From a virus (lineage: Duplodnaviria; Heunggongvirae; Uroviricota; Caudoviricetes): a stretch of DNA of 64,000 nucleotides. The stretch spans positions 104,585-168,584 of the IMG/VR virus record IMGVR_UViG_3300009500_000011, one strand, 5' to 3'. Under the pieces are notes generated by a model that saw nothing but the letters and a program-made list of their open reading frames with translations, was not told the DNA's origin and ran no database searches. Shown here one piece after another: positions 50,047 to 63,738 of the stretch (position 1 is its first letter; every line of letters starts with the position of its first letter). The position numbers and the translations under genes are program-made.

Positions 50047-50124
50047 GGTGTTTGTAGTGTAGTGGTTTTAGCACGTTAGCCTGTGAAGCTGAAAGGGCCG
50101 TTTCGAATACGGTCAAACACCCCA
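50047..50124 (+). tRNA. tRNA-His(GTG) with genome-encoded G-1
   Basis: G-1 followed by acceptor GTGTTTG/CAAACAC with C73 opposite G-1. Arm TTAGC-CTGTGAA-GCTGA. T arm GCCGT-TTCGAAT-ACGGT, CCA. Promoter at 50007-50035. Confidence 0.85.
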
Positions 50125-50155
50125 ATTAAATCTTTCTTGAAGAAGAGAAAAATAA

Positions 50156-50284
50156 ATGCACATTATAAAAACTTACTCACCTTATCATGTTGCTTGTACA
50201 TGTAATCATCCTAAATATAAACATATTGAAGGAGCAAAATGTGTAAAAGCAGAATGTAATTGTGAGTCATTTAACCGTAAGTAA
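50156..50284 (+). CDS. candidate 42-aa Cys/His-rich peptide
   Basis: Lies between tRNA-His and tRNA-Gly; C.C..H...H...C...C.C pattern. Confidence 0.25.
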   Translation: MHIIKTYSPYHVACTCNHPKYKHIEGAKCVKAECNCESFNRK

Positions 50285-50291
50285 AATTTTT

Positions 50292-50369
50292 GCGAGTATG
50301 GTGTTTAACGGTTCAGCATGGGTGCCTTCCAAGCATTTGGTGCCGGTTCAAATCCGGCTACTCGCTCCA
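50292..50369 (+). tRNA. tRNA-Gly(TCC)
   Basis: Acceptor GCGAGTA/TACTCGC, arm GGTGC-CTTCCAA-GCATT, T arm GCCGG-TTCAAAT-CCGGC, CCA. Confidence 0.85.
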
Positions 50370-50387
50370 ATTATTTAAGGAATTATA

Positions 50388-50858
50388 GTGGCAAAACATA
50401 GATTAAGTTTTTTTCAACGTTTATCTGGTTTAACAACTGAACTTGATGGATATAAACTTGATGACAATGCCTACTTTATTTATAGTTATCGACCTCATAA
50501 ATTAAATGACGTTTATAGATATGAAATCACATTAGCCCAGGGCAAAATTGTTCAAATATCTACATTTGATTTTGATGATGACTTTCATCCTTACACTATT
50601 AAAACTGAAAAAATTTATCACCATATTCTGGATATTTTCAGAACAAGACAAAAAGTTACACCACTAGTTGATATTGATAGAAACATTGGTGTTAACCGAA
50701 ATAATATTTTTGTTAGTTATGATGCTGCACTTGAAAAATATGAAAAAATTGTTACTGAAACATTTTACTTTTTTAAAGATATGGAAGCAGCATCTTCATT
50801 TAAGAACCAAGCAGACGAATTGAATGCTCATCATGAATATCTTTTGAAGTTTTTGTAA
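50388..50858 (+). CDS. hypothetical protein
   Basis: GTG start. The 3' end overlaps the convergent minus-strand ORF by 59 nt. Confidence 0.4.
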   Translation: MAKHRLSFFQRLSGLTTELDGYKLDDNAYFIYSYRPHKLNDVYRYEITLAQGKIVQISTFDFDDDFHPYTIKTEKIYHHILDIFRTRQKVTPLVDIDRNIGVNRNNIFVSYDAALEKYEKIVTETFYFFKDMEAASSFKNQADELNAHHEYLLKFL

Positions 50859-51162
50859 GAGTTGTTTGCATAAAATCAAGACAATCTTTACACATTAAAA
50901 TTAATTTTGGATTTTGAAAATTTTCTTCATCAATAATTTCAACAAAATTATTTTTTTCTGTCTTGCAAAGCAAACATAAATGTGGTATTCCATCATTAAC
51001 TGCCAAAAAATATAAAGAATTGGAAAATTTTTCAACAATAATAAATGGCCTCATTTGATGAACAATTTCTCCAATATTTAAAAGATATTTTTCCATTAAA
51101 TCGAATTCTTCATCGGTACTAAACCCAGCAGATGTTCCATCGGGCTTGAATTTGAATAGCAT
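50800..51162 (-). CDS. hypothetical protein (reverse strand)
   Basis: 120-aa minus-strand ORF with CLLC...CKDC motifs. No competing + strand ORF across most of its length. Confidence 0.45.
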   Translation of the reverse strand: MLFKFKPDGTSAGFSTDEEFDLMEKYLLNIGEIVHQMRPFIIVEKFSNSLYFLAVNDGIPHLCLLCKTEKNNFVEIIDEENFQNPKLILMCKDCLDFMQTTLTKTSKDIHDEHSIRLLGS

Positions 51163-51186
51163 ATATTGTATAATCTCCTTATATAT

Positions 51187-51263
51187 GGCCGTATACCAGC
51201 CTAATTTCCTAAATTAGTAACTGTAGATGGACAAGGTAGGTTCGAATCCTATTGCGGCCTCCA
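51187..51263 (+). tRNA. atypical tRNA-like gene, CCT anticodon-like loop, no canonical D arm
   Basis: Acceptor GGCCGTA/TGCGGCC and T arm GTAGG-TTCGAAT-CCTAT, then T73 and CCA, are good. The only anticodon-type hairpin, CTAAT-TTCCTAA-ATTAG, starts 5 nt after position 9 and leaves an 18-nt 3' spacer. Confidence 0.45.
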
Positions 51264-51286
51264 TATAATTATAAGAAGATAATAAT

Positions 51287-51637
51287 ATGCTTGAAGATTT
51301 TAGTATTCGTGTATATCCAAATCAAAGCCTTACTCATGAAGAAGTGGTATTTTTTCTAAAAAATCGAATATTATGTTCTGATAGGATAACAAAAAAATTT
51401 ATTGCTTTAAAGAAAAAAACTATTCTAAATGGACTTTTTAGAAATTGTATAACTAGAGGTTCAAAGTGGAAACAAGCTTTTCAAACTAAAGAAGAAGCTA
51501 ATACTTTTGTTGAAAAACGATTTGGTAAAGATAAAGCATATAGTTATAAATGTGAACTTCATGGTTATCACATATCTTGCATAGATGAAAGTACGTATCG
51601 AAGAGGATATTTGAAAAGAGAAGAAGAGACGAGATAA
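51287..51637 (+). CDS. hypothetical protein, paralog of 62970..63194
   Basis: Shared motif W/K-x-F-Q-T-x3-A-x2-[FW]-x2-K-x-F...Y.C..HG[YW]H. Confidence 0.4.
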   Translation: MLEDFSIRVYPNQSLTHEEVVFFLKNRILCSDRITKKFIALKKKTILNGLFRNCITRGSKWKQAFQTKEEANTFVEKRFGKDKAYSYKCELHGYHISCIDESTYRRGYLKREEETR

Positions 51638-51670
51638 ATTTATTGGACCTTTCTCAAAGGAAATAATAAA

Positions 51671-52426
51671 ATGCGCGCTCTTGGTTTAAAATCTTTAGTA
51701 GACCCACGTAGGGACCAATATCCAAAATTAATTTTAAAAGATGGTCCAATTCCTTCAAAAGTTGAATATGCTCCTTTATATCCTCCGGTTGATGACCAAG
51801 GAAATTTTGGTACATGTGTTGCATTTGGAACCGGCAAAGTCTTTGAATACTTTTATAATAAGCAGAACAACAAACAACTTTTAATTTCAAAACGTGCCCT
51901 TTTTTCAGAAATTAAACAAAATTTTTACCCTCATGATACTCAAGATGATGGTGCCCAAGTTTCTGATGGATTACAAATATTATCTTTAAATTACATCTTA
52001 GAATCTGATTTTCCTTATGAACCGGCTGGAGATTTTAGTCAGTTTTTACATGGGGTTCCAGCAAATCTTGAAAAAACAGATTTTAAAATAAAACATTTTG
52101 TATCGGTAAATCCCGTCATTGATGATATGAAAAATGCATTATTTCATCAAGGCCCTTTAGCTATCGGAACATCCTTTGCAAACGAATGGATGGAGATTGG
52201 TAGTGATGGTCGTTTACCTGGTTCTAATCTTACATCTGCTGGTGGACATTGCATGTCTATTACCGGATATGATGATGACTTTGTAAATCTAGATGGTTCA
52301 AAAGGTGCTTTCCATTATATTAACAATTGGTCAACTGCTTGGGGCCAAGAAGGATATGCTTGGTTGCCATATAACGTTGATACAGACTTTTTTCCAACCG
52401 ACCTTTTTACAGTTCAAGTTCAATAA
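51671..52426 (+). CDS. papain-like cysteine peptidase (C1 family)
   Basis: QGNFGTCVAFG (Gln/Cys), GGHCMSITGYDD (His), NNWSTAWGQEGYAW (Asn/Trp). Complete catalytic signature. Confidence 0.85.
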   Translation: MRALGLKSLVDPRRDQYPKLILKDGPIPSKVEYAPLYPPVDDQGNFGTCVAFGTGKVFEYFYNKQNNKQLLISKRALFSEIKQNFYPHDTQDDGAQVSDGLQILSLNYILESDFPYEPAGDFSQFLHGVPANLEKTDFKIKHFVSVNPVIDDMKNALFHQGPLAIGTSFANEWMEIGSDGRLPGSNLTSAGGHCMSITGYDDDFVNLDGSKGAFHYINNWSTAWGQEGYAWLPYNVDTDFFPTDLFTVQVQ

Positions 52427-52437
52427 TAATCAAACTG

Positions 52438-52466
52438 TTGACAAAACAGAGGAAATTGATTATACT
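52438..52466 (+). promoter_or_regulatory. sigma70-type promoter for the tmRNA transcript
   Basis: TTGACA-17 nt-TATACT. Confidence 0.6.
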
Positions 52467-52471
52467 ATAGA

Positions 52472-52602
52472 TATGGTCGTAAGAGACTAGTCGCGGTCTG
52501 AAAAAAAGCCGCCTTGCGTTGACCCTCTTATCACGCCCGTAAACTCGGGACTTAGTAAGTCCTTCCAGAACAAGTCTAATAAACACTCTGGAAGGCAAAC
52601 TT
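52472..52602 (+). ncRNA. structured 5' leader or co-transcribed RNA upstream of the tmRNA
   Basis: Lies between the predicted TSS and the tmRNA 5' end. 9-bp hairpin CCTTCCAGA/TCTGGAAGG and hairpin GGACTT/AAGTCC. Confidence 0.35.
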
Positions 52603-53054
52603 GGGATATAGCAGTTTTGACTGGAAAACCAAGGGCTATAAGACAAGCAGTAGAGCATTAGGCTACTATAAAAAATGCAAACAAACAATCGCAGACTTTT
52701 CTGTAACTGGGTTCAACGACTTCATCGCTCGCGAAGCGGTCGCTGCCTAAAACCTCTCTAGGCTCGTAGAGTAATACGGGCTAAGGGAAACATAGTTTCC
52801 CTACCTTATCCGTGGGGCCACACGGAAGGTTCGATTCACGTTTCAGAGGTTACTACTCTGTAGCACCATAAACGAGAATATTACCCTTATGAATAAGGGC
52901 GACCGGAGGGCTAGGTCGTAAATGGCGCTCATTGTAGGCTGAAATTTCCTACAAAACCAAGTCCTGGTTGAGGGAATAAATATCAGGAAGCTTGTATAAT
53001 CAAATAGTTCGAAGATTCTAGGACTCGGGGGGCGGCTCCCCGAATATTCCACCA
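52603..53054 (+). ncRNA. ssrA: tmRNA (SsrA) candidate, one-piece
   Basis: 5' GGGATAT pairs with 3' ATATTCC-ACCA and gives G3-U70. H-type pseudoknot AGTAG-a-GCATT-agg-CTACT-ataaaa-AATGC at 52649-52678. Then a 12-nt A-rich spacer ending ATC and resume codon GCA at 52691. The tag frame reads ADFSVTGFNDFIAREAVAA, with stop TAA at 52748-52750 in hairpin GCCTA/TAGGC. GGAC precedes the T stem TCGGG/CCCGA. Own promoter and terminator. Confidence 0.75.
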
Positions 53055-53063
53055 AATAATAAT

Positions 53064-53095
53064 AAACCTTCAATGTAAAAGTTGAAGGTTTATTT
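53064..53095 (+). terminator. intrinsic terminator after the tmRNA
   Basis: AAACCTTCAA...TTGAAGGTTT followed by ATTT. Confidence 0.6.
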
Positions 53096-53096
53096 A

Positions 53097-53125
53097 TTGA
53101 CATTCTTAGGTAATTCTGATATAAT
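53097..53125 (+). promoter_or_regulatory. sigma70-type promoter
   Basis: TTGACA-17 nt-TATAAT (full consensus). Confidence 0.65.
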
Positions 53126-53131
53126 ATTGAT

Positions 53132-53335
53132 ATGTACCCAATGAATATTCAAGTAATTTATAAAGATATTCCTGGTTTTAAAGGAATGGGTCGCGTTGTC
53201 GGTGTTGCATCTTATGCTTTTCCTGGAATGGGCTGCATGTATATTGTTGAAGACTTAGATGGTAATATTCCGACCAAAGAATATCCTTATAAAACTTTTA
53301 TTGTTCAAGAATCTTTATTACATTTTTGTACTTAA
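53132..53335 (+). CDS. hypothetical protein
   Basis: ORF behind the consensus promoter at 53097-53125. Confidence 0.4.
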   Translation: MYPMNIQVIYKDIPGFKGMGRVVGVASYAFPGMGCMYIVEDLDGNIPTKEYPYKTFIVQESLLHFCT

Positions 53336-53340
53336 TAAAA

Positions 53341-53538
53341 ATGACAGTTAAAGAATTAATTTTGGGATTATCTAAATTTGACGAAAATTTTACTATTGTT
53401 ACCAGGACTGGAAAATATTATTTAGCAGATAAAGTAACAACCGTTGAAGATGGATGGTTTGATGAAGAAAATATGATTTTTTATATTGAATCTTCATTTA
53501 AAGACATAAATATTAAAAACGCTGTATTAATAGAGTGA
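53341..53538 (+). CDS. hypothetical protein
   Basis: ORF 53326..53538 trimmed to ATG (MTVKEL). Confidence 0.4.
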   Translation: MTVKELILGLSKFDENFTIVTRTGKYYLADKVTTVEDGWFDEENMIFYIESSFKDINIKNAVLIE

Positions 53539-53624
53539 TGGGTGAATTGGTCAAACCACCTTCCTGCTAAGAAGGCGCGACCCCTCAAAAGGTCTTCCGG
53601 GTTCGAGTCCCGGTCACTCTGCCA
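53532..53624 (+). tRNA. tRNA-Ser(GCT), type II
   Basis: Acceptor AGAGTGA/TCACTCT, arm CCTTC-CTGCTAA-GAAGG, long variable arm GACC...GGTC, T arm CCGGG-TTCGAGT-CCCGG, G73, CCA. Confidence 0.85.
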
Positions 53625-55185: not shown

Positions 55186-56619
55186 TTGACTAGTTTACTT
55201 ATGACATATGGAATTCCGGTAGGTATCGGATTATTAGCATTATTTTTCATCGTTGGACTTCTTCGTTCAATGTATAAAGTCGCAGAACCGAATGAAGCTT
55301 TAATTATTTCAGGTTTTGGGGCAGGCAAAAAAGGTTCTGACTTAGATTTCAAATCAGTTGCTGGCGGTGGCACATTTGTAATTCCTGGCCTTCAAATTGT
55401 GCGTAAACTTTCTTTAGAAGCCCGTACTGCTAAATTGGTTACAAGTTGTGTTTCTAAGCAGGGTATTGGTGTATCTATTGAAGGTGTTTGTATGTACAAA
55501 ATTGGTGATAGCGCACAATCTATTGCCAACGCTGCACGACGTTTTCTAGGTCAACCAGATGACTTAATTGATAGCAATATTCAAACAGTTCTTGACGGTC
55601 ATCTTCGTTCAATTATCAGTAATTTAACGATTGAAGAAATTCTTCAAAATCGTGAAAAACTTACTGGTGAGACAAGAAGTGCTGCTGATGATGAACTTGC
55701 ACAGATGGGTCTAGTTATTAACTCGCTTCAAATCATTAGTATCAAAGATTCTAGTAATTATGTTGCAAGCATGGCTGCTCCTCATGTTGCAGAAGTTCAA
55801 AAGAATGCTCGTATTGCACAGGCTGCTGCTGAACAAGCAGCAACAATTGCTGAACAAGAGGCTGCTGCTCAAAAGGCCGCTGCTACTAGAGATTCAGAAG
55901 TCAAACAGGCTGCATATTTAGCAGAGATTGAATCTGCGAAAGCAACAGCAGCACAACAAGGCCCTCTAGCGGCTGCTAAAGCGCAACAAGCCGTTATGGT
56001 TGAACAAACTAAAATGACGGAACTTGAAGCTAATCGTAAAGAACAAGAACTTCAAGTTAGTGTTCGTCGTCCTGCTGATGCAGAAGCCTATGCTGTTACA
56101 GTTAAGGCAAATGCTCAAAAGGTTGCTACGATTGCTGCTGCTGAAGCAAATGCACAACAAACTAAACTTGAAGCTGAATCTCGCGCTGCCGCAGCTAGGG
56201 TTCTTGGTGAAGGTGAAGCAGAGGCTACAAAGGCCCGTGGTGCTGGTGAAGCTGCTGCTATTGAAGCCAAAGGTCTTGCTGAAGGTAAAGCAATTCAAGC
56301 GCGTGTACTTGCCGAAGCCGAAGGTATTGCCGCTAGTGGTAAAGCATTCGCTGAAAATAAAGAATCTGTTATTCAAAAGATTCTTGCAGAACATATGCCT
56401 GAAATTGTTAAAGAAGCTGCACAACCATTTGCTGCAATTAAAAACTTCATGGTTCTTGATGGTGCCCAAGGTGTAAATCGTACACTTACCGGAATCATCG
56501 GTGTGGGTGCAACCTTGCTTCCACAAATCATGCAGACTTTTAAAGATGGTGCAGAGGTTGTTAAGAATCAAGTATCACTCACGAATTCTGGAACAGACTC
56601 TGAAAAACCCAAGAAGTAA
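55186..56619 (+). CDS. flotillin-like SPFH (band 7) protein
   Basis: N-terminal TM helix, YKVAEPNEALIISG start of the SPFH domain, long Ala/Glu/Gln-rich flotillin coiled coil. TTG start (alternative ATG at 55201). Confidence 0.85.
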   Translation: MTSLLMTYGIPVGIGLLALFFIVGLLRSMYKVAEPNEALIISGFGAGKKGSDLDFKSVAGGGTFVIPGLQIVRKLSLEARTAKLVTSCVSKQGIGVSIEGVCMYKIGDSAQSIANAARRFLGQPDDLIDSNIQTVLDGHLRSIISNLTIEEILQNREKLTGETRSAADDELAQMGLVINSLQIISIKDSSNYVASMAAPHVAEVQKNARIAQAAAEQAATIAEQEAAAQKAAATRDSEVKQAAYLAEIESAKATAAQQGPLAAAKAQQAVMVEQTKMTELEANRKEQELQVSVRRPADAEAYAVTVKANAQKVATIAAAEANAQQTKLEAESRAAAARVLGEGEAEATKARGAGEAAAIEAKGLAEGKAIQARVLAEAEGIAASGKAFAENKESVIQKILAEHMPEIVKEAAQPFAAIKNFMVLDGAQGVNRTLTGIIGVGATLLPQIMQTFKDGAEVVKNQVSLTNSGTDSEKPKK

Positions 56620-56690
56620 GTAATTTACTACAATCACATAGCAGGTAGATTAATCTCTACCTGCTATGTTTATTTAAAAGGTTCATATAT

Positions 56691-56993
56691 ATGTTAAGCG
56701 AAGAATTTAAAGAAAAAAGATTTAAAGAAAACACATCATTAGATAAAGACCGCATTCTATATTCAGGTGCTTTATATGATGATGTTAGAGCGGCAATATA
56801 TGCTGTAGTTCGTCAATGGCGCGCTTCACATAATAATTTTGGTAAAAATTCTACAATGAAACATGTAGATGAAATTATGACTATGCCTGAAGTAATTCGA
56901 TTATATGACCCATTTTATACAACAAAAAGTTGGTTTAATTATACAGGTTGCACCTGTCGCGGTGATTGCTGCGAAAATCATGAAGAGGAATAA
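56691..56993 (+). CDS. hypothetical protein
   Basis: Intact ORF in the tiling. Confidence 0.4.
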   Translation: MLSEEFKEKRFKENTSLDKDRILYSGALYDDVRAAIYAVVRQWRASHNNFGKNSTMKHVDEIMTMPEVIRLYDPFYTTKSWFNYTGCTCRGDCCENHEEE

Positions 56994-57000
56994 TAAAAAA

Positions 57001-57228
57001 ATGCCGTTTTACAAATTTCGTTGCTCAAATTTTGAATGTAGTTATAACCAAAAAGATTTAAAACCATTAGTATTTGAATTAAATATGTCAATGACAAATT
57101 ATTCTCAATTATCTAAAGATAGTATCACCGGGAATCCAATGGTAAAATGTCCAGAATGTTCTTATGATGCTATTAGAGTATTTGAAGCCCCAGCAGTTCA
57201 TACAGAAACGGGAGTTAAATCAAGATAA
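57001..57228 (+). CDS. FmdB-family zinc-ribbon protein
   Basis: Trimmed to MPFYKFRC..FEC...CPEC, the canonical FmdB N-terminus (MP.YEYRC..C). Confidence 0.55.
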   Translation: MPFYKFRCSNFECSYNQKDLKPLVFELNMSMTNYSQLSKDSITGNPMVKCPECSYDAIRVFEAPAVHTETGVKSR

Positions 57229-57443
57229 TGAATCAAAAAGTTTACCAACCTAGAAAAGAAGATAGAAGAAAATCTTCAAGACGCGAAGCTGATGATAAAG
57301 TTATGGTAACCTTTGAACTTGATAGAGAAGTTTATTTCGAAGTTTTAAAAATTTGTATTGAGACAAAACAAACCTTTGAAGAATTTGTTGTCAAAGCGGT
57401 AAAAGAACAATTAGAAAGAATTAAAAATTCGGATGTTGGGTAG
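57228..57443 (+). CDS. possible ribbon-helix-helix (CopG-like) protein
   Basis: Basic N-terminus, then beta-strand VMVTFELD and two short helices. By-eye call only. Confidence 0.35.
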   Translation: MNQKVYQPRKEDRRKSSRREADDKVMVTFELDREVYFEVLKICIETKQTFEEFVVKAVKEQLERIKNSDVG

Positions 57444-57681
57444 ACAACAATCTTTGTACAATTCTTGTAAAATTAATTTTAATACTTTAAAACAAAATGT
57501 TAAAATTTTGTTGGGTGATAATAAAAAAGTTTTAGATGCCTTACAAGTTGTTGAATTAGAACTAATTAAAGTCAATCCTTATTGTAAAATAACTTCAATT
57601 AAAAATGTTACAGAAGAAGAAAACAATTCTCCTGTTCTAGAAAAAGAGAATACTACTGATGAAAGCAAAACAAGCAATTAA
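57433..57681 (+). CDS. hypothetical protein
   Basis: Intact ORF overlapping both neighbours by a few codons. Confidence 0.35.
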   Translation: MLGRQQSLYNSCKINFNTLKQNVKILLGDNKKVLDALQVVELELIKVNPYCKITSIKNVTEEENNSPVLEKENTTDESKTSN

Positions 57682-57853
57682 AATGCTAAAAAACATAGGA
57701 TTTGATATAGAGCGTATGGGAAAAGGTGACCATATATTATTGCGGAGTCCTGATAATAAAAGAATTGTTCTGCAAAATGGTGCATTAGAATTATCTCCAG
57801 GTTTGACAGGTAAAGTTAGAAGTCTTTTGCAAAAAGGTAAGTTAAATGAGTGA
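57659..57853 (+). CDS. HicA-like mRNA interferase toxin
   Basis: 64 aa. K..IK.L...GF.....GKGDH......D......L.....L..G pattern of the YcfA/HicA family. Confidence 0.55.
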   Translation: MKAKQAIKMLKNIGFDIERMGKGDHILLRSPDNKRIVLQNGALELSPGLTGKVRSLLQKGKLNE

Positions 57854-58106
57854 CCATTATACTTATTCCTATGATTCTCCTCCTTTTTGTTATAAATGTA
57901 AAACATTACATAATAATAATCTAATTTGTGATGTTCTTAAAGAAGAATATCTTAAAAAAAGTTTAGAACCCGAAAGATTTATAAAAGTCCACGAAGAAAA
58001 ACGCTGGATTGATTCGACTAATTTCCGAATAATAGAATATTTCAATCTTTTGCCTAAAAAAATTTATGGAAATTGGGCTAAACCAATATTGTTGACAAAA
58101 CAATAA
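57846..58106 (+). CDS. hypothetical protein
   Basis: ATGAGTGA overlap with the HicA-like gene. Contains the promoter for tRNA-Val in its 3' end. Confidence 0.4.
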   Translation: MSDHYTYSYDSPPFCYKCKTLHNNNLICDVLKEEYLKKSLEPERFIKVHEEKRWIDSTNFRIIEYFNLLPKKIYGNWAKPILLTKQ

Positions 58107-58120
58107 AATTGTGCTATTAT
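58092..58120 (+). promoter_or_regulatory. sigma70-type promoter for tRNA-Val(TAC)
   Basis: TTGACA-17 nt-TATTAT, 10 nt upstream of the tRNA 5' end. Confidence 0.6.
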
Positions 58121-58130
58121 AAAAGTATAT

Positions 58131-58213
58131 CGGCGGGTTCCCGTAGCGGCGAACGGTCTGCTTTTACATGGCAGCATACCACATCGTGGGTTCGAGTCCC
58201 ACCCTGCCGACCA
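58131..58213 (+). tRNA. tRNA-Val(TAC) with 11-nt variable loop
   Basis: Acceptor CGGCGGG/CCTGCCG, arm CTGCT-TTTACAT-GGCAG, variable CATACCACATC, T arm GTGGG-TTCGAGT-CCCAC, CCA. Promoter at 58092-58120. Confidence 0.7.
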
Positions 58214-58230
58214 CTTTAGCAGAGAAACAA

Positions 58231-58560
58231 ATGGCAAAAGTAACAAAAAAATTAGAGCATTGCCCTGATTGTTATGTTAAGATAAATGAACGCCATCATA
58301 AAGGCTGTGACATTGAAAGATGTACGGTTTGTGGCGGTCAAAGACTTGTTTGCGGTTGTAAAGGTCATAAGCCTTGGAGTGCTGTTTGGACCGGATTTTG
58401 GCCCGGTGTAATTGAATGTCAAGTTTTAGGATGGTATTCAAAATTTATTCCGAATTATGGTTGGCGTCAAACTACCCAAGATGACCCAGATGGAATGGAA
58501 GATTTAAACCGATGGGTTATCTATAACATGGAAGTTCATCAGTTGACAAATCTTTCCTAA
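58231..58560 (+). CDS. hypothetical Cys/His-rich protein
   Basis: ORF 58168..58560 trimmed to ATG (MAKVTKK); the first 21 codons are tRNA-Val. CPDC...CTVCGG...CGC. Confidence 0.4.
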   Translation: MAKVTKKLEHCPDCYVKINERHHKGCDIERCTVCGGQRLVCGCKGHKPWSAVWTGFWPGVIECQVLGWYSKFIPNYGWRQTTQDDPDGMEDLNRWVIYNMEVHQLTNLS

Positions 58561-58571
58561 TTTAGTATCAT
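58543..58571 (+). promoter_or_regulatory. sigma70-type promoter for the leader plus tRNA-Arg
   Basis: TTGACA-17 nt-TATCAT. Confidence 0.55.
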
Positions 58572-58577
58572 ATAATT

Positions 58578-58680
58578 GTAAGCACCAAGCGGGTAAGAGA
58601 ATGAATGTAAGAAGTTCTCTCTTCGTAGTGCAATTCCGTGGTTCTTGTCGTCTTAAACCGAACGGCGCTTTTTCGGTTAA
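58578..58680 (+). ncRNA. structured leader RNA upstream of tRNA-Arg(ACG)
   Basis: Lies after promoter 58543-58571. Hairpins AAGAGAA/TTCTCTT, GCAC/GTGC and AACCGAA/TTCGGTT. No ORF. Confidence 0.35.
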
Positions 58681-58685
58681 AATAT

Positions 58686-58776
58686 CTCGGTGTGGTGTAA
58701 CTGGATAGCACAAAACGCTACGAACGTTTAGGGAGCCGCAAGGCCATTGGGGGTTCGAATCCCTCCATCGAGGCCA
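58686..58776 (+). tRNA. tRNA-Arg(ACG) on a type II (long variable arm) scaffold
   Basis: Acceptor CTCGGTG/CATCGAG, perfect arm AAACG-CTACGAA-CGTTT, 19-nt variable region with GCC-GCAA-GGC hairpin, T arm GGGGG-TTCGAAT-CCCTC, CCA. 91 nt. Confidence 0.65.
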
Positions 58777-59009
58777 ATTAAAAAATTCCTTCTAGTAAAG
58801 AAGGGTAAGAGCATGAGTTAGGCGGGTAAACTGTACTATGCCAGGCCAAGGTAGTGGCAGCACAAATCTACTGTAGAGCAAGAGTCGAACAGTTTACATA
58901 AGAACACCTAGCAAACTGGGAGAGTTGAGGCCCAGGGATGCCGCCGAACATTCACTCTGTACAATTCGGCATTCAAAATTTCAAACTGCAAATTGAGTGC
59001 AGTATTTAA
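58777..59009 (+). ncRNA. structured non-coding region downstream of tRNA-Arg(ACG)
   Basis: Nested long-range pairings GGCGG/CCGCC and GTAAACTGT/ACAGTTTAC. Hairpins GCCGAA/TTCGGC and CTGCA/TGCAG. Shares a GGGTAAGAG box with the upstream leader. No ORF. Confidence 0.35.
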
Positions 59010-59294
59010 TTGAAACATTATAGATATCAAAGTCAAGAAGATGGTTACTGTCTTTCAAAAGAAGAATGGTGCTATCTTTGGTCATTAGAAGATGATTATT
59101 TAGGTCCAAATTGGACTCATGAAGATAGTTGGGAAGTTTATTTTGATGAAAGGTTGAATAACAAAAGCTTTATATCTATTGAAGATGAACAACATTCATG
59201 CAATAGATATAAAGGACAAACAATTCAACAAATAGAAGAAGAAATGATTCACTACTTTGAAAAAATTGAAGGAATGAAAAAAATTTCAAAGTAA
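59010..59294 (+). CDS. hypothetical protein
   Basis: TTG start; intact ORF. Confidence 0.4.
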   Translation: MKHYRYQSQEDGYCLSKEEWCYLWSLEDDYLGPNWTHEDSWEVYFDERLNNKSFISIEDEQHSCNRYKGQTIQQIEEEMIHYFEKIEGMKKISK

Positions 59295-59383
59295 GACTTG
59301 TCTTTTCCACAACAATGATATATAATGCTACAAGTGTGGATTTTCCACATAATTTGATTAAAGAAGAAAGGAACTTATCGAAA

Positions 59384-59467
59384 ATGCAAACTGCTAATAA
59401 CGTTGCAATGGCCCCGGTTGTTGTCGTTCCCGCACCTCAAGGTGTGTTAGTTAGTTATGCCCGATAA
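59384..59467 (+). CDS. candidate 27-aa micro-ORF
   Basis: Promoter-like TTGTCT-17-TATAAT at 59298-59326, RBS AAGAAAGGA. Peptide MQTANNVAMAPVVVVPAPQGVLVSYAR. Strong terminator at 59497-59525. Confidence 0.25.
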   Translation: MQTANNVAMAPVVVVPAPQGVLVSYAR

Positions 59468-59496
59468 GTAACCTTAAGGTCTAAAAAAGAATTTAG

Positions 59497-59525
59497 AACC
59501 CCTGGTGAAAACCGGGGGTTTTTTG
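59497..59525 (+). terminator. intrinsic terminator
   Basis: AACCCCTGG-tgaaaa-CCGGGGGTT followed by TTTT. Confidence 0.65.
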
Positions 59526-59626
59526 TATAATCGGGGGTAGGCAAGCGGTGAGCCATCTGGCCTGGACTCATTGTTATTAATCCAAATCAATTGAGTATTT
59601 CTCCTTTAGAAGGAGATTATTCAAAA

Positions 59627-60082
59627 ATGAAAACTTGTTTAAACTGCAAACAAATTAAAGACGAATCTTTATTTAGATGGAAAAATAAATCCAAGGGTTG
59701 GAAAAAAGCTAATTGTATAGAATGTGATAAAGTCTACGATAGAAAATATCATCAAAATCGACCATTAGAAAAGAAAAAAAATAAATTAATTTTAAGTAAA
59801 AAAAGAATAGACGATATAACAGAAAAAATTTGTTTACTTTTATTAAATAAAAAATGTATTGATTGTGGTCAATCTGATATTAGAGCTTTAGATTTTGACC
59901 ATCAAGAAAATAAAACTAATAATATTGGTAATCTTACTAGTATTAAATGGAGTTGGGAAAGAGTTCAAGAAGAAATCGAAAAATGTGTAGTTAGATGTGC
60001 TAATTGTCATAGAATTAAAACTCATAAAGAGAGAAAAACACGAAAATATTTATTTGGTTTAAAATATAATCTCTGGGAGTAA
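59627..60082 (+). CDS. HNH homing-type endonuclease (paralog 3 of 3)
   Basis: Trimmed to the ATG after RBS AAGGAGA. CLNC...CIEC ribbon, LDFDHQEN, CANCHRIKTH. The last 10 nt overlap tRNA-Pro. Confidence 0.7.
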   Translation: MKTCLNCKQIKDESLFRWKNKSKGWKKANCIECDKVYDRKYHQNRPLEKKKNKLILSKKRIDDITEKICLLLLNKKCIDCGQSDIRALDFDHQENKTNNIGNLTSIKWSWERVQEEIEKCVVRCANCHRIKTHKERKTRKYLFGLKYNLWE

Positions 60083-60147
60083 CTCAAAAGTAGAGTGCTA
60101 TGTTTGGAACATAGAAGTTGGGATGGCAGAATTCCCCTCTCAGACCA
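60073..60147 (+). tRNA. tRNA-Pro(TGG)
   Basis: C1-G72 acceptor CTGGGAG/CTCTCAG, D arm ACTC/GAGT, arm CTATG-TTTGGAA-CATAG, A73, CCA. T arm GGGAT-GGCAGAA-TTCCC (non-canonical). The 5' end overlaps the HNH stop codon. Confidence 0.65.
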
Positions 60148-60167
60148 ATCTTTTAGAAAGAAGAGAC

Positions 60168-60515
60168 ATGGGACTGTTTAGAAAAATATCTACGGCCACT
60201 TTACCATCAAATAACGCTGTAATGAAAAGTTATTTGGTAGATACAAAAAATCCAAATCCCTATAAGTATAAAATTTTAAAAACAGAACAATTAGGTGAAT
60301 ATTTGATTGTCAAAATTAATTATCCTAATTGTGAAAATTACGAAGGAAATAAAATTTTAGTTTATAAAAATACTACAATAGATAAATTAGTATCAGGAAA
60401 ATATATAGACCCGCATTTTTTTGATAATAAAATTTACAATTCTCCAATTGCTAGATTTCGACCAACCAAAGAAGGTTGGAATATGGCAATTAATTTTGTA
60501 AAAGGTTTAAAATAA
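60168..60515 (+). CDS. hypothetical protein
   Basis: ORF 60123..60515 trimmed to MGLFRK because its first 25 nt (60123-60147) overlap tRNA-Pro; the first Met after the tRNA was chosen. Confidence 0.4.
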   Translation: MGLFRKISTATLPSNNAVMKSYLVDTKNPNPYKYKILKTEQLGEYLIVKINYPNCENYEGNKILVYKNTTIDKLVSGKYIDPHFFDNKIYNSPIARFRPTKEGWNMAINFVKGLK

Positions 60516-60519
60516 ATAT

Positions 60520-60593
60520 AGCGGAGTGGTGAAATGGTATCATGCGTGGTTTGGGACCATGTGGCGAGGGTTCGATTCCCTCCTCTGCTACCA
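60520..60593 (+). tRNA. tRNA-Pro(TGG), second copy
   Basis: Acceptor AGCGGAG/CTCTGCT, arm CGTGG-TTTGGGA-CCATG (G37), T arm GAGGG-TTCGATT-CCCTC, CCA. Confidence 0.8.
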
Positions 60594-60597
60594 ATTT

Positions 60598-60672
60598 CCC
60601 CGGTTAGTTCAGCGGGAGAACGCCACATTGACATTGTGGAGGTGGTAGGTTCGACACCTACACCGGGGACCA
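60598..60672 (+). tRNA. tRNA-Val(GAC)
   Basis: Acceptor CCCCGGT/ACCGGGG, arm CCACA-TTGACAT-TGTGG, T arm GTAGG-TTCGACA-CCTAC, CCA. Confidence 0.85.
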
Positions 60673-60792
60673 ACAAACTTAAAGAAGTTGCGCTCAATCC
60701 GACGCTACAAGGTCGCTCCTTGTATCTTGTATAGAGAATATCGGAGTGCGAGACGTTTTCGGTTCACTACGAGTAAGAAGGGAACCGTTTAA

Positions 60793-60867
60793 GGGGAACT
60801 AGTGCTAATGGTAACACGACTCGCTTGCACCGAGTAATTCAGAGTTCGATTCTCTGGTTCTCCACCA
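60793..60867 (+). tRNA. tRNA-Ala(TGC)
   Basis: Acceptor GGGGAAC/GTTCTCC with G3-U70. Arm ACTCG-CTTGCAC-CGAGT, T arm CAGAG-TTCGATT-CTCTG, A73, CCA. Confidence 0.9.
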
Positions 60868-60891
60868 AATTTATTCAAGGTAAATAGTAGT

Positions 60892-61110
60892 ATGTCATTT
60901 AGAAAATTTGTATTTGAAAGAAGTGAAGATGTAAGCGGAGTATCAGGAATCGGTATTGTTGCTGAAGGCGTAGAATTTTCAAATGGTAAAACAGTAATTG
61001 CTTGGTGCGTTCCTGGAAAACCAAATTCAGCAGTTATATACGATAATATACACGAAGCAATAGAAGTACATGGTCACGAAGGCCGAACAGTAATAAAATG
61101 GATAGATTAA
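60892..61110 (+). CDS. hypothetical protein
   Basis: Intact ORF after tRNA-Ala. Confidence 0.4.
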   Translation: MSFRKFVFERSEDVSGVSGIGIVAEGVEFSNGKTVIAWCVPGKPNSAVIYDNIHEAIEVHGHEGRTVIKWID

Positions 61111-61111
61111 G

Positions 61112-61513
61112 ATGGATGAATTTGAAGAAATTATTGATGTTTTAGTCCGAAAAATTGAACTATCTGATGATAGATATGTTTTGGTTATAAATGGTAAATA
61201 TCAATTAGTAGTTGATGCAGATTGTTGCTCTGAAACATGGATTGAACATATTATTGGTGTAAAACAATTATTAGGTTCAAAAATAAGAAGTGTAAAAAGA
61301 TTAGAATTTCCATCTGAATATATTGAATGCTTGACGAAAGCAGAACCATCTGCCGACTATACACAATATTATGGATTAGCTATAACTTCTAGAAATGGGC
61401 AAATGATTATTGATTTTCGTAATCGGAGCAATGGTTATTATGGTGGAAGTATTCAGTTGCTTATTAGCGAAAAAATTCCTTCAAATTTAAGATTGATAAC
61501 CGAGGATGAATAA
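61112..61513 (+). CDS. hypothetical protein
   Basis: Intact ORF in the tiling. Confidence 0.4.
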   Translation: MDEFEEIIDVLVRKIELSDDRYVLVINGKYQLVVDADCCSETWIEHIIGVKQLLGSKIRSVKRLEFPSEYIECLTKAEPSADYTQYYGLAITSRNGQMIIDFRNRSNGYYGGSIQLLISEKIPSNLRLITEDE

Positions 61514-61515
61514 TA

Positions 61516-61716
61516 ATGTTCTGCGGTAAAAAACCAACTCAAGATGAAATAATGAAAATCAAAGAGTTTGCTGCTTTCTTAAGAAATATAAATTCTATCG
61601 AAAAAGATGAGAACTTGACAAAAGAAGAAAAAAAAGATAAACTAAACGAAATTATAGCGCAAGCAAATAATAAAATACAAAAAGAATGGGAAAATGGCAG
61701 AAAAAAACGACGATAA
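61516..61716 (+). CDS. hypothetical lysine-rich protein
   Basis: Intact ORF in the tiling. Confidence 0.4.
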   Translation: MFCGKKPTQDEIMKIKEFAAFLRNINSIEKDENLTKEEKKDKLNEIIAQANNKIQKEWENGRKKRR

Positions 61717-61924
61717 GTTTGAACTAAAAGGTTTTGTACTTAAATCACATCCCGGAGCAACTTTTTCAGTTCGATTAGAAGGAATAGAAAAAGATGTTCT
61801 TTGTCATCTTTCTGGGAAAATGCGAATGAATAATATTCGTGTTCTAGAAGGTGATACTGTGGATGTTGAAATGGATGTATATGATTTATCTAGGGGTAAA
61901 ATCATATTTAGGTATAAGAAATAG
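61694..61924 (+). CDS. infA: translation initiation factor IF-1 homologue
   Basis: 76 aa, colinear with bacterial IF-1: G.V........F.V.LE.......H.SGKMR.N.IR.L.GD.V.VE...YDLS.G.I.FR. Confidence 0.9.
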   Translation: MAEKNDDKFELKGFVLKSHPGATFSVRLEGIEKDVLCHLSGKMRMNNIRVLEGDTVDVEMDVYDLSRGKIIFRYKK

Positions 61925-62089
61925 ATGGTCGATAGACTATTACATTTTCTTCAAAATAAATATGTTCCCGCACTATGGGCAGTTTTATTAACAGTATGGT
62001 TAATTGGTGCTATAATTGATACAACTCCCAAAGTATATAATGTAATAAATTTAATAAATAAACAAATAAAGGTCAATCATCATGTTTGA
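61925..62089 (+). CDS. candidate 54-aa membrane peptide
   Basis: TM-like ALWAVLLTVWLIGAII. ATGTTTGA overlap with the next gene. Confidence 0.3.
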   Translation: MVDRLLHFLQNKYVPALWAVLLTVWLIGAIIDTTPKVYNVINLINKQIKVNHHV

Positions 62090-62360
62090 AATTGAATTTG
62101 TTGGTGGATATCATGATGGAAGAATTGAAAAGGTTGCTAAAACAAATCCTACAAAAACATTAACAATTAGCCAAAAAATGTCTACGAATGATTTAACTGG
62201 AGAAATTAAATCTCTTGTAAGCAGCTACAAATTAGATAGGAAAACTGAAGGTGTAAATGGTTTTCCACGCATTATTTATATAATTGATGCAGAAATTATA
62301 GAAACATCATTGATGCAAGATTTAATTAAAAATACAAGACACCTTCCAGAAGGATTATAA
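62082..62360 (+). CDS. hypothetical protein
   Basis: Intact ORF in the tiling. Confidence 0.4.
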   Translation: MFEIEFVGGYHDGRIEKVAKTNPTKTLTISQKMSTNDLTGEIKSLVSSYKLDRKTEGVNGFPRIIYIIDAEIIETSLMQDLIKNTRHLPEGL

Positions 62361-62361
62361 A

Positions 62362-62562
62362 ATGGCAGAAAAAGTTCAAAGTGATTCAACTATGTTTTTT
62401 AATTCGCGAGAAGATTCTGAAAAATTAATTAAAGAAGTTAAACATATTTCGACTACTAAGGTTCAAATTCCATTGCATGATGAATTACAAAAATTGATAT
62501 CCCATTCTGTTGGGATACCTCCTGAAGTAATGAATATTGACAAAACTAAAGAAAAAGAGTAG
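62362..62562 (+). CDS. hypothetical protein
   Basis: Intact ORF in the tiling. Confidence 0.4.
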   Translation: MAEKVQSDSTMFFNSREDSEKLIKEVKHISTTKVQIPLHDELQKLISHSVGIPPEVMNIDKTKEKE

Positions 62563-62577
62563 TATATAAATAAATAT

Positions 62578-62652
62578 GGGGTTATCATATAGTGGCTATT
62601 ATGACGGTTTTGCAAATCGTTCACCTCAGTTCGACTCTGAGTAGCTCCACCA
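62578..62652 (+). tRNA. tRNA-Ala(TGC), second copy
   Basis: Acceptor GGGGTTA/TAGCTCC with G3-U70. Arm ACGGT-TTTGCAA-ATCGT, T arm CTCAG-TTCGACT-CTGAG, A73, CCA. Confidence 0.85.
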
Positions 62653-62662
62653 AACAAAAATT

Positions 62663-62863
62663 ATGGAACATAATGATATAGACCAAAAAACAGTTCATGC
62701 TCTTGTATATAAATTTGCAAATGATTTAAATGCATTATTTGGCTGTGAAACAACTTTTAAAATTTCTAAAATGCCCCATGCAAAATATGGAATGGCTATG
62801 GAAATAAAGGTTCATCCACATTATCCAGTTAATGAAATAAACATTGATTTAACAATAAATTAA
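62663..62863 (+). CDS. hypothetical protein
   Basis: Intact ORF between two tRNAs. Confidence 0.4.
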   Translation: MEHNDIDQKTVHALVYKFANDLNALFGCETTFKISKMPHAKYGMAMEIKVHPHYPVNEINIDLTIN

Positions 62864-62868
62864 AATAT

Positions 62869-62944
62869 GGCTCTATCGTATAGCGGTTTATTATAGGGGT
62901 TTCATAAGCCTTTGACGAAAGTTCGACTCTTTCTAGAGCCTCCA
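62869..62944 (+). tRNA. tRNA with CAT anticodon (Met or Ile2)
   Basis: Acceptor GGCTCTA/TAGAGCC, arm GGGGT-TTCATAA-GCCTT (G-U rich), T arm GAAAG-TTCGACT-CTTTC, CCA. Confidence 0.75.
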
Positions 62945-63194: not shown

Positions 63195-63225
63195 TTTTTC
63201 TTGTGCATTCTGGTACAATTTGTGT

Positions 63226-63738
63226 ATGAAAATTACTGATAAATACGTTTTGTTTTTTGGGCCAGAAGATTGTCCTTCCCAATGGTATCCTGTAAAGTTC
63301 AAAACTAGATTATTCGATTTTGAAAATTTAGAATTTAATTGTAGTGAACAATTCATGATGGCTGCAAAAGCATTATTCTTTGATGACAAAGAATCATTTG
63401 TTAAAATCATGAATACGTCTAGCCCCAATCAACAAAAATCTTTAGGTCGAAATGTTCAAGGTTTTGATAAAGATAAATGGAATGCTGTTTGCCGACCTTT
63501 AGTGACAGTTGGCAATATGGCTAAATTTACTCAAAATGATGATTTAAAGCAGTTTATGTTAGACAATGAGGGGAAAATTTTTGTTGAGGCTTCTCCTTAT
63601 GACGATATTTGGGGTGTTAAACTTGGGGCCAACGACCCTAGAATTTTAGACCCTTCTAAATGGAGAGGGACTAATTGGCTTGGAGAAATTTTGACTAGAA
63701 TTAATATTATAATTTGCAAAAAGGAGAAGTCAAAATGA
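63226..63738 (+). CDS. NADAR (YbiA-like) domain protein
   Basis: SEQFMMAAKA, SP...K.LGR, W......V...N.AKF.QN..L...L......VEASP.D.IWG, G.N.LGE.L motifs of the YbiA/NADAR family. Confidence 0.8.
   Translation: MKITDKYVLFFGPEDCPSQWYPVKFKTRLFDFENLEFNCSEQFMMAAKALFFDDKESFVKIMNTSSPNQQKSLGRNVQGFDKDKWNAVCRPLVTVGNMAKFTQNDDLKQFMLDNEGKIFVEASPYDDIWGVKLGANDPRILDPSKWRGTNWLGEILTRINIIICKKEKSK

What the first reader, a model, noticed from the sequence alone, without database searches (positions are those of the whole stretch)
57228..58106. Orphan HicA-like toxin gene with overlapping small neighbours but no obvious HicB
The 64-aa ORF 57659..57853 matches the HicA/YcfA mRNA interferase pattern (GF...G.G.H...). 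It overlaps its upstream 82-aa neighbour, and it overlaps the downstream 86-aa ORF (ATGAGTGA). A possible ribbon-helix-helix protein lies two genes upstream. None of these resembles the RNase-H-fold HicB. The antitoxin may be non-canonical, the protein may be repurposed for host mRNA shut-off, or it may counter a host HicAB system.
Basis: partly seen in the sequence, partly recalled or inferred. Interest (0 to 1): 0.5.

Follow-up and report, generated by a model that had tools for sequence, protein, structure and literature searches.

The report
Stand-alone HicA-type RNase gene in phage
A large, tRNA-rich phage genome carries a genuine but divergent member of the HicA RNA-cutting toxin family with no recognisable HicB antidote; it belongs to a small phage-only lineage whose neighbouring genes are never conserved, so it most likely acts alone on RNA during infection. 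This is a modest variant of a known theme.

Summary
ORF 57659..57853 (64 aa) is a real HicA-family protein:
- Pfam PF07927 scores E 5.9e-6, at 26.7 bits against a cut-off of 27.
- A profile of its closest relatives hits solved HicA structures (5YRZ, 4.5e-7).
- The catalytic Gly-x-His (G23/H25) is invariant.

The overlaps with the 82-aa ORF (23 nt) and the 86-aa ORF (ATGAGTGA, 8 nt) are real.

No HicB was found by sequence among the adjacent ORFs, among 73 other small ORFs of the window, or in a six-frame search with a phage small HicB. No RNA-antitoxin-like repeats were found either.

The gene belongs to a small clade of 33 protein clusters known only from metagenomes. Twelve independent contexts were examined. 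All look phage-like, none has HicB, and the flanking genes are unrelated from one context to the next.

The best reading is an antitoxin-free phage RNase, comparable to T4 RegB. A cryptic, lineage-specific antitoxin (the 86-aa or 82-aa ORF) or a non-toxic RNA-binding role remain possible. Orphan phage HicA-like genes are already on record (LeBron gp82). I rate it a new variant of a known kind, of modest interest.

The parts
57659..57853 (+). hicA-like gene. [quoted passage not shown]
   Evidence: Pfam PF07927 E 5.9e-6. PHROG 353 E 2.1e-6. The clade profile hits PDB HicA chains 5yrz_B at 4.5e-7 and 4p78_C at 3.4e-5. AF2 pLDDT 86.3. The top four Foldseek PDB hits are all HicA. pI.
57846..58106 (+). 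Downstream 86-aa ORF, overlapping hicA by 8 nt (ATGAGTGA). It contains C15-x2-C18-x3-H22-x5-C28. Its function is unknown. It occupies the position of a class 1 small HicB, but nothing shows it to be one.
57433..57681 (+). Upstream 82-aa ORF with an acidic C-terminal tail, overlapping hicA by 23 nt. Function unknown.
   Evidence: Gene call and coordinates. Codon-usage score 0.35, best of the six frames. No family or PDB hit.
57228..57443 (+). 71-aa ORF, a weak ribbon-helix-helix (Arc-like) candidate with a basic N-terminal tail.
   Evidence: PHROG 582 Arc-like repressor E 4.6e-4. Pfam PSK_trans_fac E 0.05, below cut-off. No PDB RHH hit.
57001..57228 (+). 75-aa FmdB-like CxxC...CxxC zinc-ribbon ORF in the same tightly packed cassette.
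   Evidence: NCBIfam TIGR02605 E 8.3e-5, below cut-off. Gene call.
56691..56993 (+). 100-aa ORF, the first gene of the six-gene cassette. Function unknown.
   Evidence: No family hits.
56636..56669 (+). Perfect 14-bp hairpin (terminator-like) that closes the preceding SPFH/flotillin gene and marks the upstream edge of the cassette.
58092..58213 (+). Near-consensus sigma-70-type promoter (TTGACA-17-TGnTATTAT, 58092-58120) followed by tRNA-Val(UAC) at 58131-58213. This marks the downstream edge of the cassette.

Best explanation
ORF 57659..57853 encodes a stand-alone HicA-family protein in a large, tRNA-rich phage genome. Its fold and its catalytic Gly-x-His are those of the ribosome-independent HicA endoribonucleases. 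It belongs to a small clade known only from metagenomes and found in phage genomes of very different G+C content. In that clade the gene is inserted among unrelated small early-type genes or between the small and large terminase genes, and it is never found next to HicB. The most likely mechanism is as follows. The gene is co-transcribed with its tightly packed neighbours during infection. The basic 64-aa protein binds RNA and cleaves it through H25. It needs no dedicated antitoxin because it is made only in a cell the phage is already taking over. Its job would be decay of host mRNA or tmRNA, or turnover of phage mRNA, in the way T4 RegB (a RelE/YoeB-fold RNase with no known antitoxin) works. 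What is shown: family membership, fold, conservation of the catalytic motif, absence of HicB by sequence, and lack of any conserved partner. What is inferred: RNase activity, timing of expression, targets, and the absence of any neutraliser.
For: Family. Pfam and PHROG hits. All 11 nearest relatives hit PF07927. The clade profile hits solved HicA chains 5YRZ_B at 4.5e-7, 4P78_C at 3.4e-5 and 1WHZ at 1e-3. In those alignments window G23/H25 lie on YpHicA3 G26/H28 and StpHicA H36, residues the HicAB review (PMC11594946) reports as required for activity or toxicity.
Fold. AF2 pLDDT 86.3 with order H-E-E-E-H. Foldseek ranks 1-4 are 1WHZ, 5YRZ_B and 6G26_E/F, at probability 1.00 and TM 0.63-0.73.
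Conservation. G14, R19, G21, G23 and H25 are invariant, and K52/V53/R54 nearly so, across 33 clusters that are 30-56% identical to the window protein. All members checked are strongly basic, pI 9.9-11.9.
No partner. Adjacent ORFs have no HicB or antitoxin hit. 73 further small ORFs of the window have none. A six-frame phmmer search with the PaV-LD class 1 HicB gave a best E of 2.8. There are no tandem repeats of type III antitoxin kind and no Rfam family other than tRNA.
Comparative. Twelve independent contexts contain ERF, GP3_package, P22_portal, DUF5681, large terminase, Bro-N, Dam, and Acb2/Tad1. No HicB is on record in any of them. All-vs-all blastp and phmmer of the flanking proteins find only the large terminase shared. 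Even the closely related P0010 and P0040 have different neighbours.
Distribution. The clade is absent from 50,697 isolate phage records. Clade-specific patterns found no true member in 185,579 species genomes. Two members are IMG/VR viral genomes.
Precedent. T4 RegB has the RelE/YoeB fold and no known antitoxin (PMC3014915).
Against: No activity data exist. The only orphan phage HicA-like protein tested so far, LeBron gp82, was not toxic on overexpression (PMC13148394), so a solitary HicA may be attenuated rather than a weapon. The 86-aa ORF has the size, position and overlap of a class 1 small HicB (PMC10865869). Its low-confidence model has strand-strand-strand-helix order at its N-terminus, so a very divergent antitoxin is not excluded. 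The 82-aa and 86-aa proteins are singletons, which gives profile methods no power. The 82-aa protein was never modelled. Only 64 kb of a 168.6-kb contig was visible, so a HicB elsewhere in the genome is possible. The scan of concatenated ORFs is slightly less sensitive than separate scans. Expression timing rests only on promoter-like and terminator-like patterns.
Confidence: 0.5

Rival explanations
1. This is a compact two-gene toxin-antitoxin module whose antitoxin is unrecognisable by sequence. The antitoxin would be either the overlapping downstream 86-aa ORF (a class 1 hicAB layout) or the overlapping upstream 82-aa ORF with its acidic tail. The RHH-like 71-aa protein might serve as a separate transcriptional regulator. 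Each phage lineage would then have recruited a different antitoxin.
For: The genes overlap by 8 nt and 23 nt, which fits translational coupling. The 86-aa ORF falls in the 67-97 aa range of class 1 HicBs, which are encoded downstream of hicA and are often overlapping (PMC10865869). The low-confidence AF2 model begins strand-strand-strand-helix. In several related loci a small ORF overlaps hicA by 4-7 nt: L002, L007, L014, L019 and L020 downstream; L010 and L012 upstream. An Arc-like candidate lies two genes upstream.
Confidence: 0.2
2. This is a domesticated, non-toxic HicA-fold RNA-binding protein. It would act for example as a regulator or RNA chaperone within the phage's extensive RNA and translation toolkit, with little or no nuclease activity.
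For: The orphan HicA-like gp82 of mycobacteriophage LeBron was not toxic on overexpression (PMC13148394). The HicA fold is a dsRNA-binding-domain fold (PMC11594946). The window is rich in RNA and translation functions: 32 tRNAs, an Rnl1-like RNA ligase, an Rv2179c-like exoribonuclease, an IF-1 homologue and a PHROG 850 RNA-binding protein. The absence of an antitoxin is what one expects of a harmless protein.
Against: The residues needed for HicA catalysis and toxicity (G23, H25) are invariant across 33 diverged clade members, along with R19 and G21. That pattern is more easily explained by retained catalysis than by binding alone.
Confidence: 0.2
3. This is a counter-defence factor aimed at a host HicAB system or some other host immune system. 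It could act as a decoy that titrates host HicB, or as an RNase that destroys defence transcripts.
For: Phages do carry toxin-antitoxin-derived genes as counter-measures (PMC11594946). One related locus, L010, carries an Acb2/Tad1-type anti-defence gene about 2.7 kb away.
Against: Titrating host HicB would release host HicA and harm the phage, so the useful mimic would be a HicB and not a HicA. No anti-defence family hit was found (PADLOC and Pfam). There is no consistent linkage to anti-defence genes in the other contexts.
Confidence: 0.05
4. The ORF is a chance open reading frame or a decayed gene remnant with a fortuitous motif.
For: The Pfam score (26.7) is just below the gathering cut-off (27.0), and it aligns only residues 4-38. 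The GF..G.G.H motif also occurs by chance in IspF.
Against: The alignment to 32 relatives is full-length, with matching start and end. The HicA fold is predicted with confidence. Codon usage is best in the annotated frame.
Confidence: 0.02

Closest known systems
HicA toxins of type II HicAB systems (E. coli HicA, Y. pestis HicA3 4P78, S. pneumoniae HicA 5YRZ, B. pseudomallei HicA 6G26/4C26, T. thermophilus TTHA1913 1WHZ)
   Same: Single-domain protein of about 60 aa, basic, with the alpha-beta-beta-beta-alpha dsRBD-like fold. The G-x-H catalytic motif sits in the same place, as shown by profile and fold matches.
   Different: Only 20-28% identical to the solved structures. The clade has its own signature, ELS-x-G-M/L-x-G/A-K-V-R-S. 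The window protein reads LQN where canonical HicA such as E. coli HicA has the P-x-H segment (canonical motif recalled from memory). No HicB is adjacent. The genomic setting is a phage gene array and not a bacterial defence island.
Class 1 compact hicAB modules (Gerdes 2024, PMC10865869), e.g. Planktothrix phage PaV-LD ORF031L/ORF030L
   Same: A phage-borne hicA is followed by an overlapping small ORF without a DNA-binding domain. The window has 64 aa + 86 aa with an 8-nt overlap; PaV-LD has 75 aa + 72 aa with a 4-nt overlap.
Orphan HicA-like gp82 of mycobacteriophage LeBron, contrasted with the paired HicA-like toxins of Adephagia and Amelie
   Same: A phage-encoded HicA-like gene with no predicted cognate antitoxin nearby (PMC13148394).
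   Different: LeBron is a temperate-type actinophage. No sequence relationship to the present clade was detected: tblastn of three clade members against 50,697 phage records found nothing. LeBron gp82 was experimentally non-toxic, whereas nothing is known for the present protein.
Bacteriophage T4 RegB endoribonuclease
   Same: This is a functional analogy only. RegB is a small phage-encoded endoribonuclease with a toxin-type fold (RelE/YoeB), no known antitoxin and early expression, and it inactivates mRNAs (PMC3014915).
   Different: The fold family differs (RelE/YoeB versus the HicA dsRBD-like fold). RegB's specificity (GGAG) and its activation by ribosomal protein S1 are established experimentally, whereas nothing is known for the present protein.

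Membership tests
HicA toxin family (Pfam PF07927 / COG1724) | Small single-domain protein of 50-100 aa | tested here: met
   64 aa, with start and stop aligned to 32 relatives of 57-88 aa.
HicA toxin family (Pfam PF07927 / COG1724) | Significant match to the family profile | tested here: met
   Pfam E 5.9e-6, but 26.7 bits against a gathering cut-off of 27.0, which is marginally below. PHROG 353 E 2.1e-6. All 11 nearest relatives hit PF07927, best E 3.7e-9. The clade profile hits PDB HicA chains at 4.5e-7 and 3.4e-5.
HicA toxin family (Pfam PF07927 / COG1724) | [quoted passage not shown] | tested here: met
   AF2 with a 33-sequence alignment: pLDDT 86.3, elements H3-13, E16-20, E25-29, E35-39, H47-62. 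Foldseek ranks 1-4 are HicA structures at probability 1.00.
HicA toxin family (Pfam PF07927 / COG1724) | Conserved catalytic histidine, with a glycine two residues before it | tested here: met
   H25 and G23 are invariant in 33 sequences. They align to YpHicA3 H28/G26 and StpHicA H36. The roles of those residues are taken from PMC11594946.
HicA toxin family (Pfam PF07927 / COG1724) | Ribosome-independent RNase activity and growth inhibition on expression | not testable with these tools
   Requires expression and biochemistry.
HicAB type II toxin-antitoxin module | Adjacent HicB antitoxin with a partial RNase H fold (beta-beta-beta-alpha-beta) N-domain | tested here: not met
HicAB type II toxin-antitoxin module | Antitoxin carries, or is linked to, an HTH/RHH/Phd DNA-binding domain for autoregulation | tested here: inconclusive
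   A separate 71-aa Arc-like candidate lies two genes upstream. Support is weak: PHROG 582 E 4.6e-4 and a Pfam hit below cut-off.
HicAB type II toxin-antitoxin module | Toxin and partner are inherited together across relatives | tested here: not met
   In 12 independent contexts of the clade the flanking proteins are unrelated to one another.
Gerdes class 1 compact hicAB | hicA followed by a closely linked or overlapping small ORF (67-97 aa) without a DNA-binding domain | tested here: met
   The 86-aa ORF overlaps hicA by 8 nt and has no DNA-binding-domain hit. The class definition is from PMC10865869.
Gerdes class 1 compact hicAB | The small ORF is a HicB, by sequence or by fold | tested here: not met
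   No sequence similarity. The fold test is inconclusive because the model is poor.
Type III (RNA antitoxin) systems | Tandem direct repeats encoding an antitoxic RNA next to the toxin gene | tested here: not met
   Only an 11-nt unit repeated 1.9 times was found (57454-57474). The only Rfam hits are tRNAs.

The most novel reading that the evidence does not exclude
A phage-restricted lineage of HicA endoribonucleases has dispensed with antitoxins altogether. Phages would use it offensively, or to programme mRNA turnover, as a HicA-fold counterpart of T4 RegB. In this tRNA-rich large phage it could clear host mRNA or tmRNA while the phage supplies its own tRNAs, IF-1 and RNA-repair enzymes. That would add a fifteenth, 'solitary phage' genetic context to the 14 described for HicA.
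Probability: 0.3. Interest if true: 0.6.

Novelty: new variant of a known kind. Interest (0 to 1): 0.35.

Why it matters
HicA is usually discussed as a bacterial toxin held in check by HicB and used for defence against phages. A conserved clade found only in phages keeps the catalytic residues yet never travels with HicB or any other fixed partner. That suggests phages also use this RNase fold on their own account. If activity is confirmed, it would give a second example beside T4 RegB of a toxin-fold RNase working without an antitoxin in a virus. It would also provide a small, tractable protein for asking how HicA chooses its RNA targets. As it stands this is a modest extension. Orphan HicA-like genes in phages have already been noted, and one of them was non-toxic.

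Tried and rejected
- DNA similarity (blastn) of the 5-kb region, and tblastn of three clade members, against 50,697 phage records: no match.
- Single-protein scans of IMG/VR with the HicA and the 86-aa protein: nothing.
- The first 11-sequence alignment was too diverse for pattern scans.
- The word-indexed protein search found only the proteins themselves, both for HicA and for the 86-aa ORF.
- The long repeat proteins among the HMMER hits (P0003 and similar, FDYDHSGKLDHLVLYRPG repeats) were judged spurious partial matches to residues 12-39.
- A genome-collection scan with clade patterns returned only IspF (MEcPP synthase) false positives.
- I first took PaV-LD ORF047L/048L for its hicAB pair. 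This was wrong. The real pair is ORF031L/030L.
- Considered and rejected:
  - a type III RNA antitoxin;
  - a shared zinc-finger partner: the downstream ORFs of the window, L002 and L014 all have Cys motifs, but of different kinds, without homology, and Cys-rich small ORFs are common throughout these genomes;
  - counter-defence against host HicAB, which has no plausible mechanism;
  - dN/dS analysis, because the only other contig is 100% identical.

Full report
SETTING. The window is AT-rich (about 32% G+C) and almost entirely coded on the + strand. It carries 32 tRNA genes. It also encodes a ribonucleotide reductase, a primase, an Rnl1-like RNA ligase and a PHROG 850 RNA-binding protein. Smaller genes include an IF-1 homologue, a NADAR protein, an AdoMet decarboxylase, an Rv2179c-like exoribonuclease and a dCMP deaminase. 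The HicA-like protein is on record from two contigs, the longer being 168,584 bp. The shorter, a Logan contig, is 100% identical to the window over 11,994 bases. This is part of a large, uncultured phage genome. Nothing similar at DNA level exists among 50,697 deposited phage records.

OBSERVATION. All four ORFs are at the stated coordinates.
- The 64-aa ORF (57659..57853) overlaps the 82-aa ORF by 23 nt.
- It overlaps the 86-aa ORF by 8 nt, within ATGAGTGA.
- An independent gene caller made the same calls.
- A codon-usage log-odds trained on the window's 20 long genes is highest in the annotated frame for each of the six small ORFs from 56691 to 58106.
- These six genes form a tight cassette. 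It lies between a perfect 14-bp hairpin (56636-56669) that follows the SPFH/flotillin gene and a near-consensus sigma-70-type promoter (58092-58120) that precedes tRNA-Val.

IS IT HicA? Yes. The sequence evidence:
- Pfam HicA_toxin gives E 5.9e-6. The score is 26.7 bits, a hair below the 27.0 gathering cut-off, and covers residues 4-38 only.
- PHROG 353 'toxin' gives 2.1e-6.
- The best PDB sequence match is 1WHZ, a T. thermophilus hypothetical protein that I recognise, from memory, as TTHA1913, a HicA-fold structure.
- An exhaustive HMMER scan of 1.84 billion representatives found 21 hits. Ten are 59-88-aa proteins that are 36-53% identical over their full length. The rest are long repeat proteins matching only a short segment, which I discount.
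- All 11 aligned members, i.e. the window protein and its ten short relatives, hit PF07927.
- Their profile hits solved HicA chains: 5YRZ_B at 4.5e-7, 4P78_C at 3.4e-5 and 1WHZ at 1e-3.
- In those alignments window G23 and H25 fall on YpHicA3 G26/H28 and on StpHicA H36. The HicAB review reports these residues as required for RNase activity or toxicity (PMC11594946).

The fold evidence agrees. With 33 sequences, AlphaFold2 gives pLDDT 86.3 and the order helix, three strands, helix. The four best Foldseek matches in the PDB are all HicA structures, at probability 1.00. Viral predicted structures annotated HicA, toxin or RNA-binding protein also match, at only 20-28% identity.

IS THERE A HicB? 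Not by any test I could run.
- The 71-, 82- and 86-aa ORFs, plus the two ORFs before them and the one after, have no HicB or other antitoxin hit in Pfam, PHROGs, NCBIfam or PADLOC at E up to 1.
- The 71-, 82- and 86-aa ORFs have no HicB match among PDB sequences at E up to 10.
- The 86-aa protein is a singleton among 5.8 billion proteins.
- I concatenated 73 further small ORFs of the window and scanned them against Pfam. No HicB or antitoxin domain appeared.
- I recovered the small class 1 HicB of Planktothrix phage PaV-LD (ORF030L; its HicA is ORF031L) and searched all six frames of the window with it. The best E was 2.8.
- There are no tandem repeats of the kind that encode RNA antitoxins, and no Rfam family other than tRNA.
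- The RHH idea for the 71-aa protein rests on one weak PHROG hit (Arc-like repressor, 4.6e-4).

COMPARATIVE EVIDENCE. This is the main new result. A profile search returned 33 clusters of the same clade, nearly all with a precomputed HicA annotation. I examined 12 independent genomic contexts.
- All are arrays of short same-strand genes with phage hallmarks: ERF recombinase, small terminase (GP3_package, DUF5681), large terminase, P22-type portal, Bro-N, Dam methylase, a CI-like repressor, and Acb2/Tad1.
- Their G+C ranges from 34% to 66%.
- In two contexts the gene sits in the packaging operon ahead of the large terminase: directly between the upstream ORFs and terL in L008, and with one small SEC-C ORF between hicA and terL in L014. 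A small terminase gene lies upstream in both.
- No neighbour has a HicB domain on record.
- All-against-all blastp and phmmer of the flanking proteins find nothing shared except that large terminase.
- Even the closely related HicAs P0010 and P0040 have different neighbours.
- The flanking proteins show no consistent acidity, whereas the HicAs are uniformly basic, pI 9.9-11.9.
- Clade-specific peptide patterns found no true member in one genome for each of 185,579 bacterial and archaeal species. The four candidates were IspF enzymes that share the GFD..R.GKGDHILL string by chance.
- Two members are IMG/VR viral genomes.
- None is in the isolate phage collection.

INTERPRETATION. Gerdes (PMC10865869) lists 14 genetic contexts for HicA domains, and a solitary phage hicA is not among them. 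Class 1 is the nearest layout to the window: hicA followed by a closely linked or overlapping HicB of 67-97 aa that lacks a DNA-binding domain. Under that layout the 86-aa ORF would be the antitoxin candidate. Nothing beyond size and position supports this, however, and the lack of any conserved partner across the clade argues that no dedicated partner is required. The conservation of R19, G21, G23 and H25 across proteins only 30-56% identical to the window protein argues for retained catalysis. A phage that expresses the gene only during productive infection has no need to neutralise it. T4 RegB is a RelE/YoeB-fold RNase with no known antitoxin that inactivates early mRNAs, and it is the functional precedent (PMC3014915). 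One fact counts against a confident 'weapon' reading. The orphan HicA-like gp82 of mycobacteriophage LeBron was not toxic when overexpressed, unlike the paired HicA-like toxins of Adephagia and Amelie (PMC13148394).

My estimates are:
- antitoxin-free RNase: about 0.5;
- cryptic lineage-specific antitoxin: about 0.2;
- non-toxic RNA-binding role: about 0.2;
- counter-defence: about 0.05.

LIMITS.
- There is no experimental evidence.
- Only 64 kb of a 168.6-kb genome was visible.
- The two flanking proteins are singletons, which defeats profile methods.
- Expression timing is inferred from sequence patterns only.

VERDICT. The 'orphan' state is real at the level that sequence methods can reach, and it turns out to be the rule for a small phage-only clade. 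This is a new variant of a known kind, of modest interest (0.35).

Noticed in passing
window 16876-27979, 50048-53624, 58131-62944: There are 32 tRNA genes in 64 kb, all on the + strand, interspersed with small ORFs and HNH-like endonuclease ORFs (17713-18174, 36827-37306, 59591-60082). One call (18948-19021) has a four-base anticodon 'atcg'. Several class I tRNAs are unusually long: Val 83 nt, Arg 91 nt, Lys 85 nt.
   Followed up: no
window 61694-61924: A 76-aa ORF matches translation initiation factor IF-1 / eIF-1A (Pfam PF01176, E 3.4e-17). It appears to be a phage-encoded IF-1 homologue sitting among the tRNA genes.
   Followed up: partly
window 63220-63738; 24447-24935; 11631-12935; 45439-47205: An RNA and ADP-ribose toolkit is present: a NADAR domain protein (E 7.7e-42), an Rv2179c-like 3'-5' exoribonuclease (5.9e-14), an Rnl1-like RNA ligase (PHROG 562) and a 588-aa PHROG 850 'RNA-binding protein'.
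   Followed up: partly
window 55186-56619: A 477-aa SPFH/Band 7 protein with a flotillin-like C-terminal region lies immediately upstream of the cassette. It is followed by a perfect 14-bp terminator-like hairpin (56636-56669).
   Followed up: partly
window, whole (e.g. 24077-24104, 50007-50035, 53097-53125, 58092-58120, 58543-58571): Near-consensus sigma-70 promoters (at least 11 of 12 positions) are strongly strand-biased: 11 on + against 1 on -, with a shuffled mean of 2.8. For 7 of the 11 the next feature downstream is a tRNA gene, suggesting that host RNA polymerase transcribes the tRNA region.
   Followed up: partly
window 10715-11146; 26263-26742; 7562-8041; 30463-30888; 28853-29404: Other small-ORF domain hits: AdoMet decarboxylase (1.1e-20), DUF4326 (4.6e-20), sigma-70 region 2 (1.4e-5), dCMP/cytidine deaminase (2.7e-5) and nucleoside 2-deoxyribosyltransferase (2.9e-6).
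   Followed up: no
L021 3986-4459; L022 3983-4462: IspF (MEcPP synthase) N-termini read MRIGHGFDVHRFGKGDHILLGG. This mimics the HicA GF..R.GKGDHILL motif and produces false positives in motif-based searches.
   Followed up: yes
L008 3001-3183; L014 3001-3186: In two unrelated phages (38% and 65% G+C) the clade's hicA sits in the packaging operon, downstream of the small terminase gene and upstream of the large terminase gene. This is a typical 'moron' insertion site, and it implies late expression there.
   Followed up: partly
L017 (Planktothrix phage PaV-LD) 17318-17760, minus strand: The class 1 hicAB pair of PaV-LD (ORF031L HicA, ORF030L small HicB, 4-nt overlap) is annotated only as 'hypothetical protein' in the GenBank record.
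   Followed up: yes
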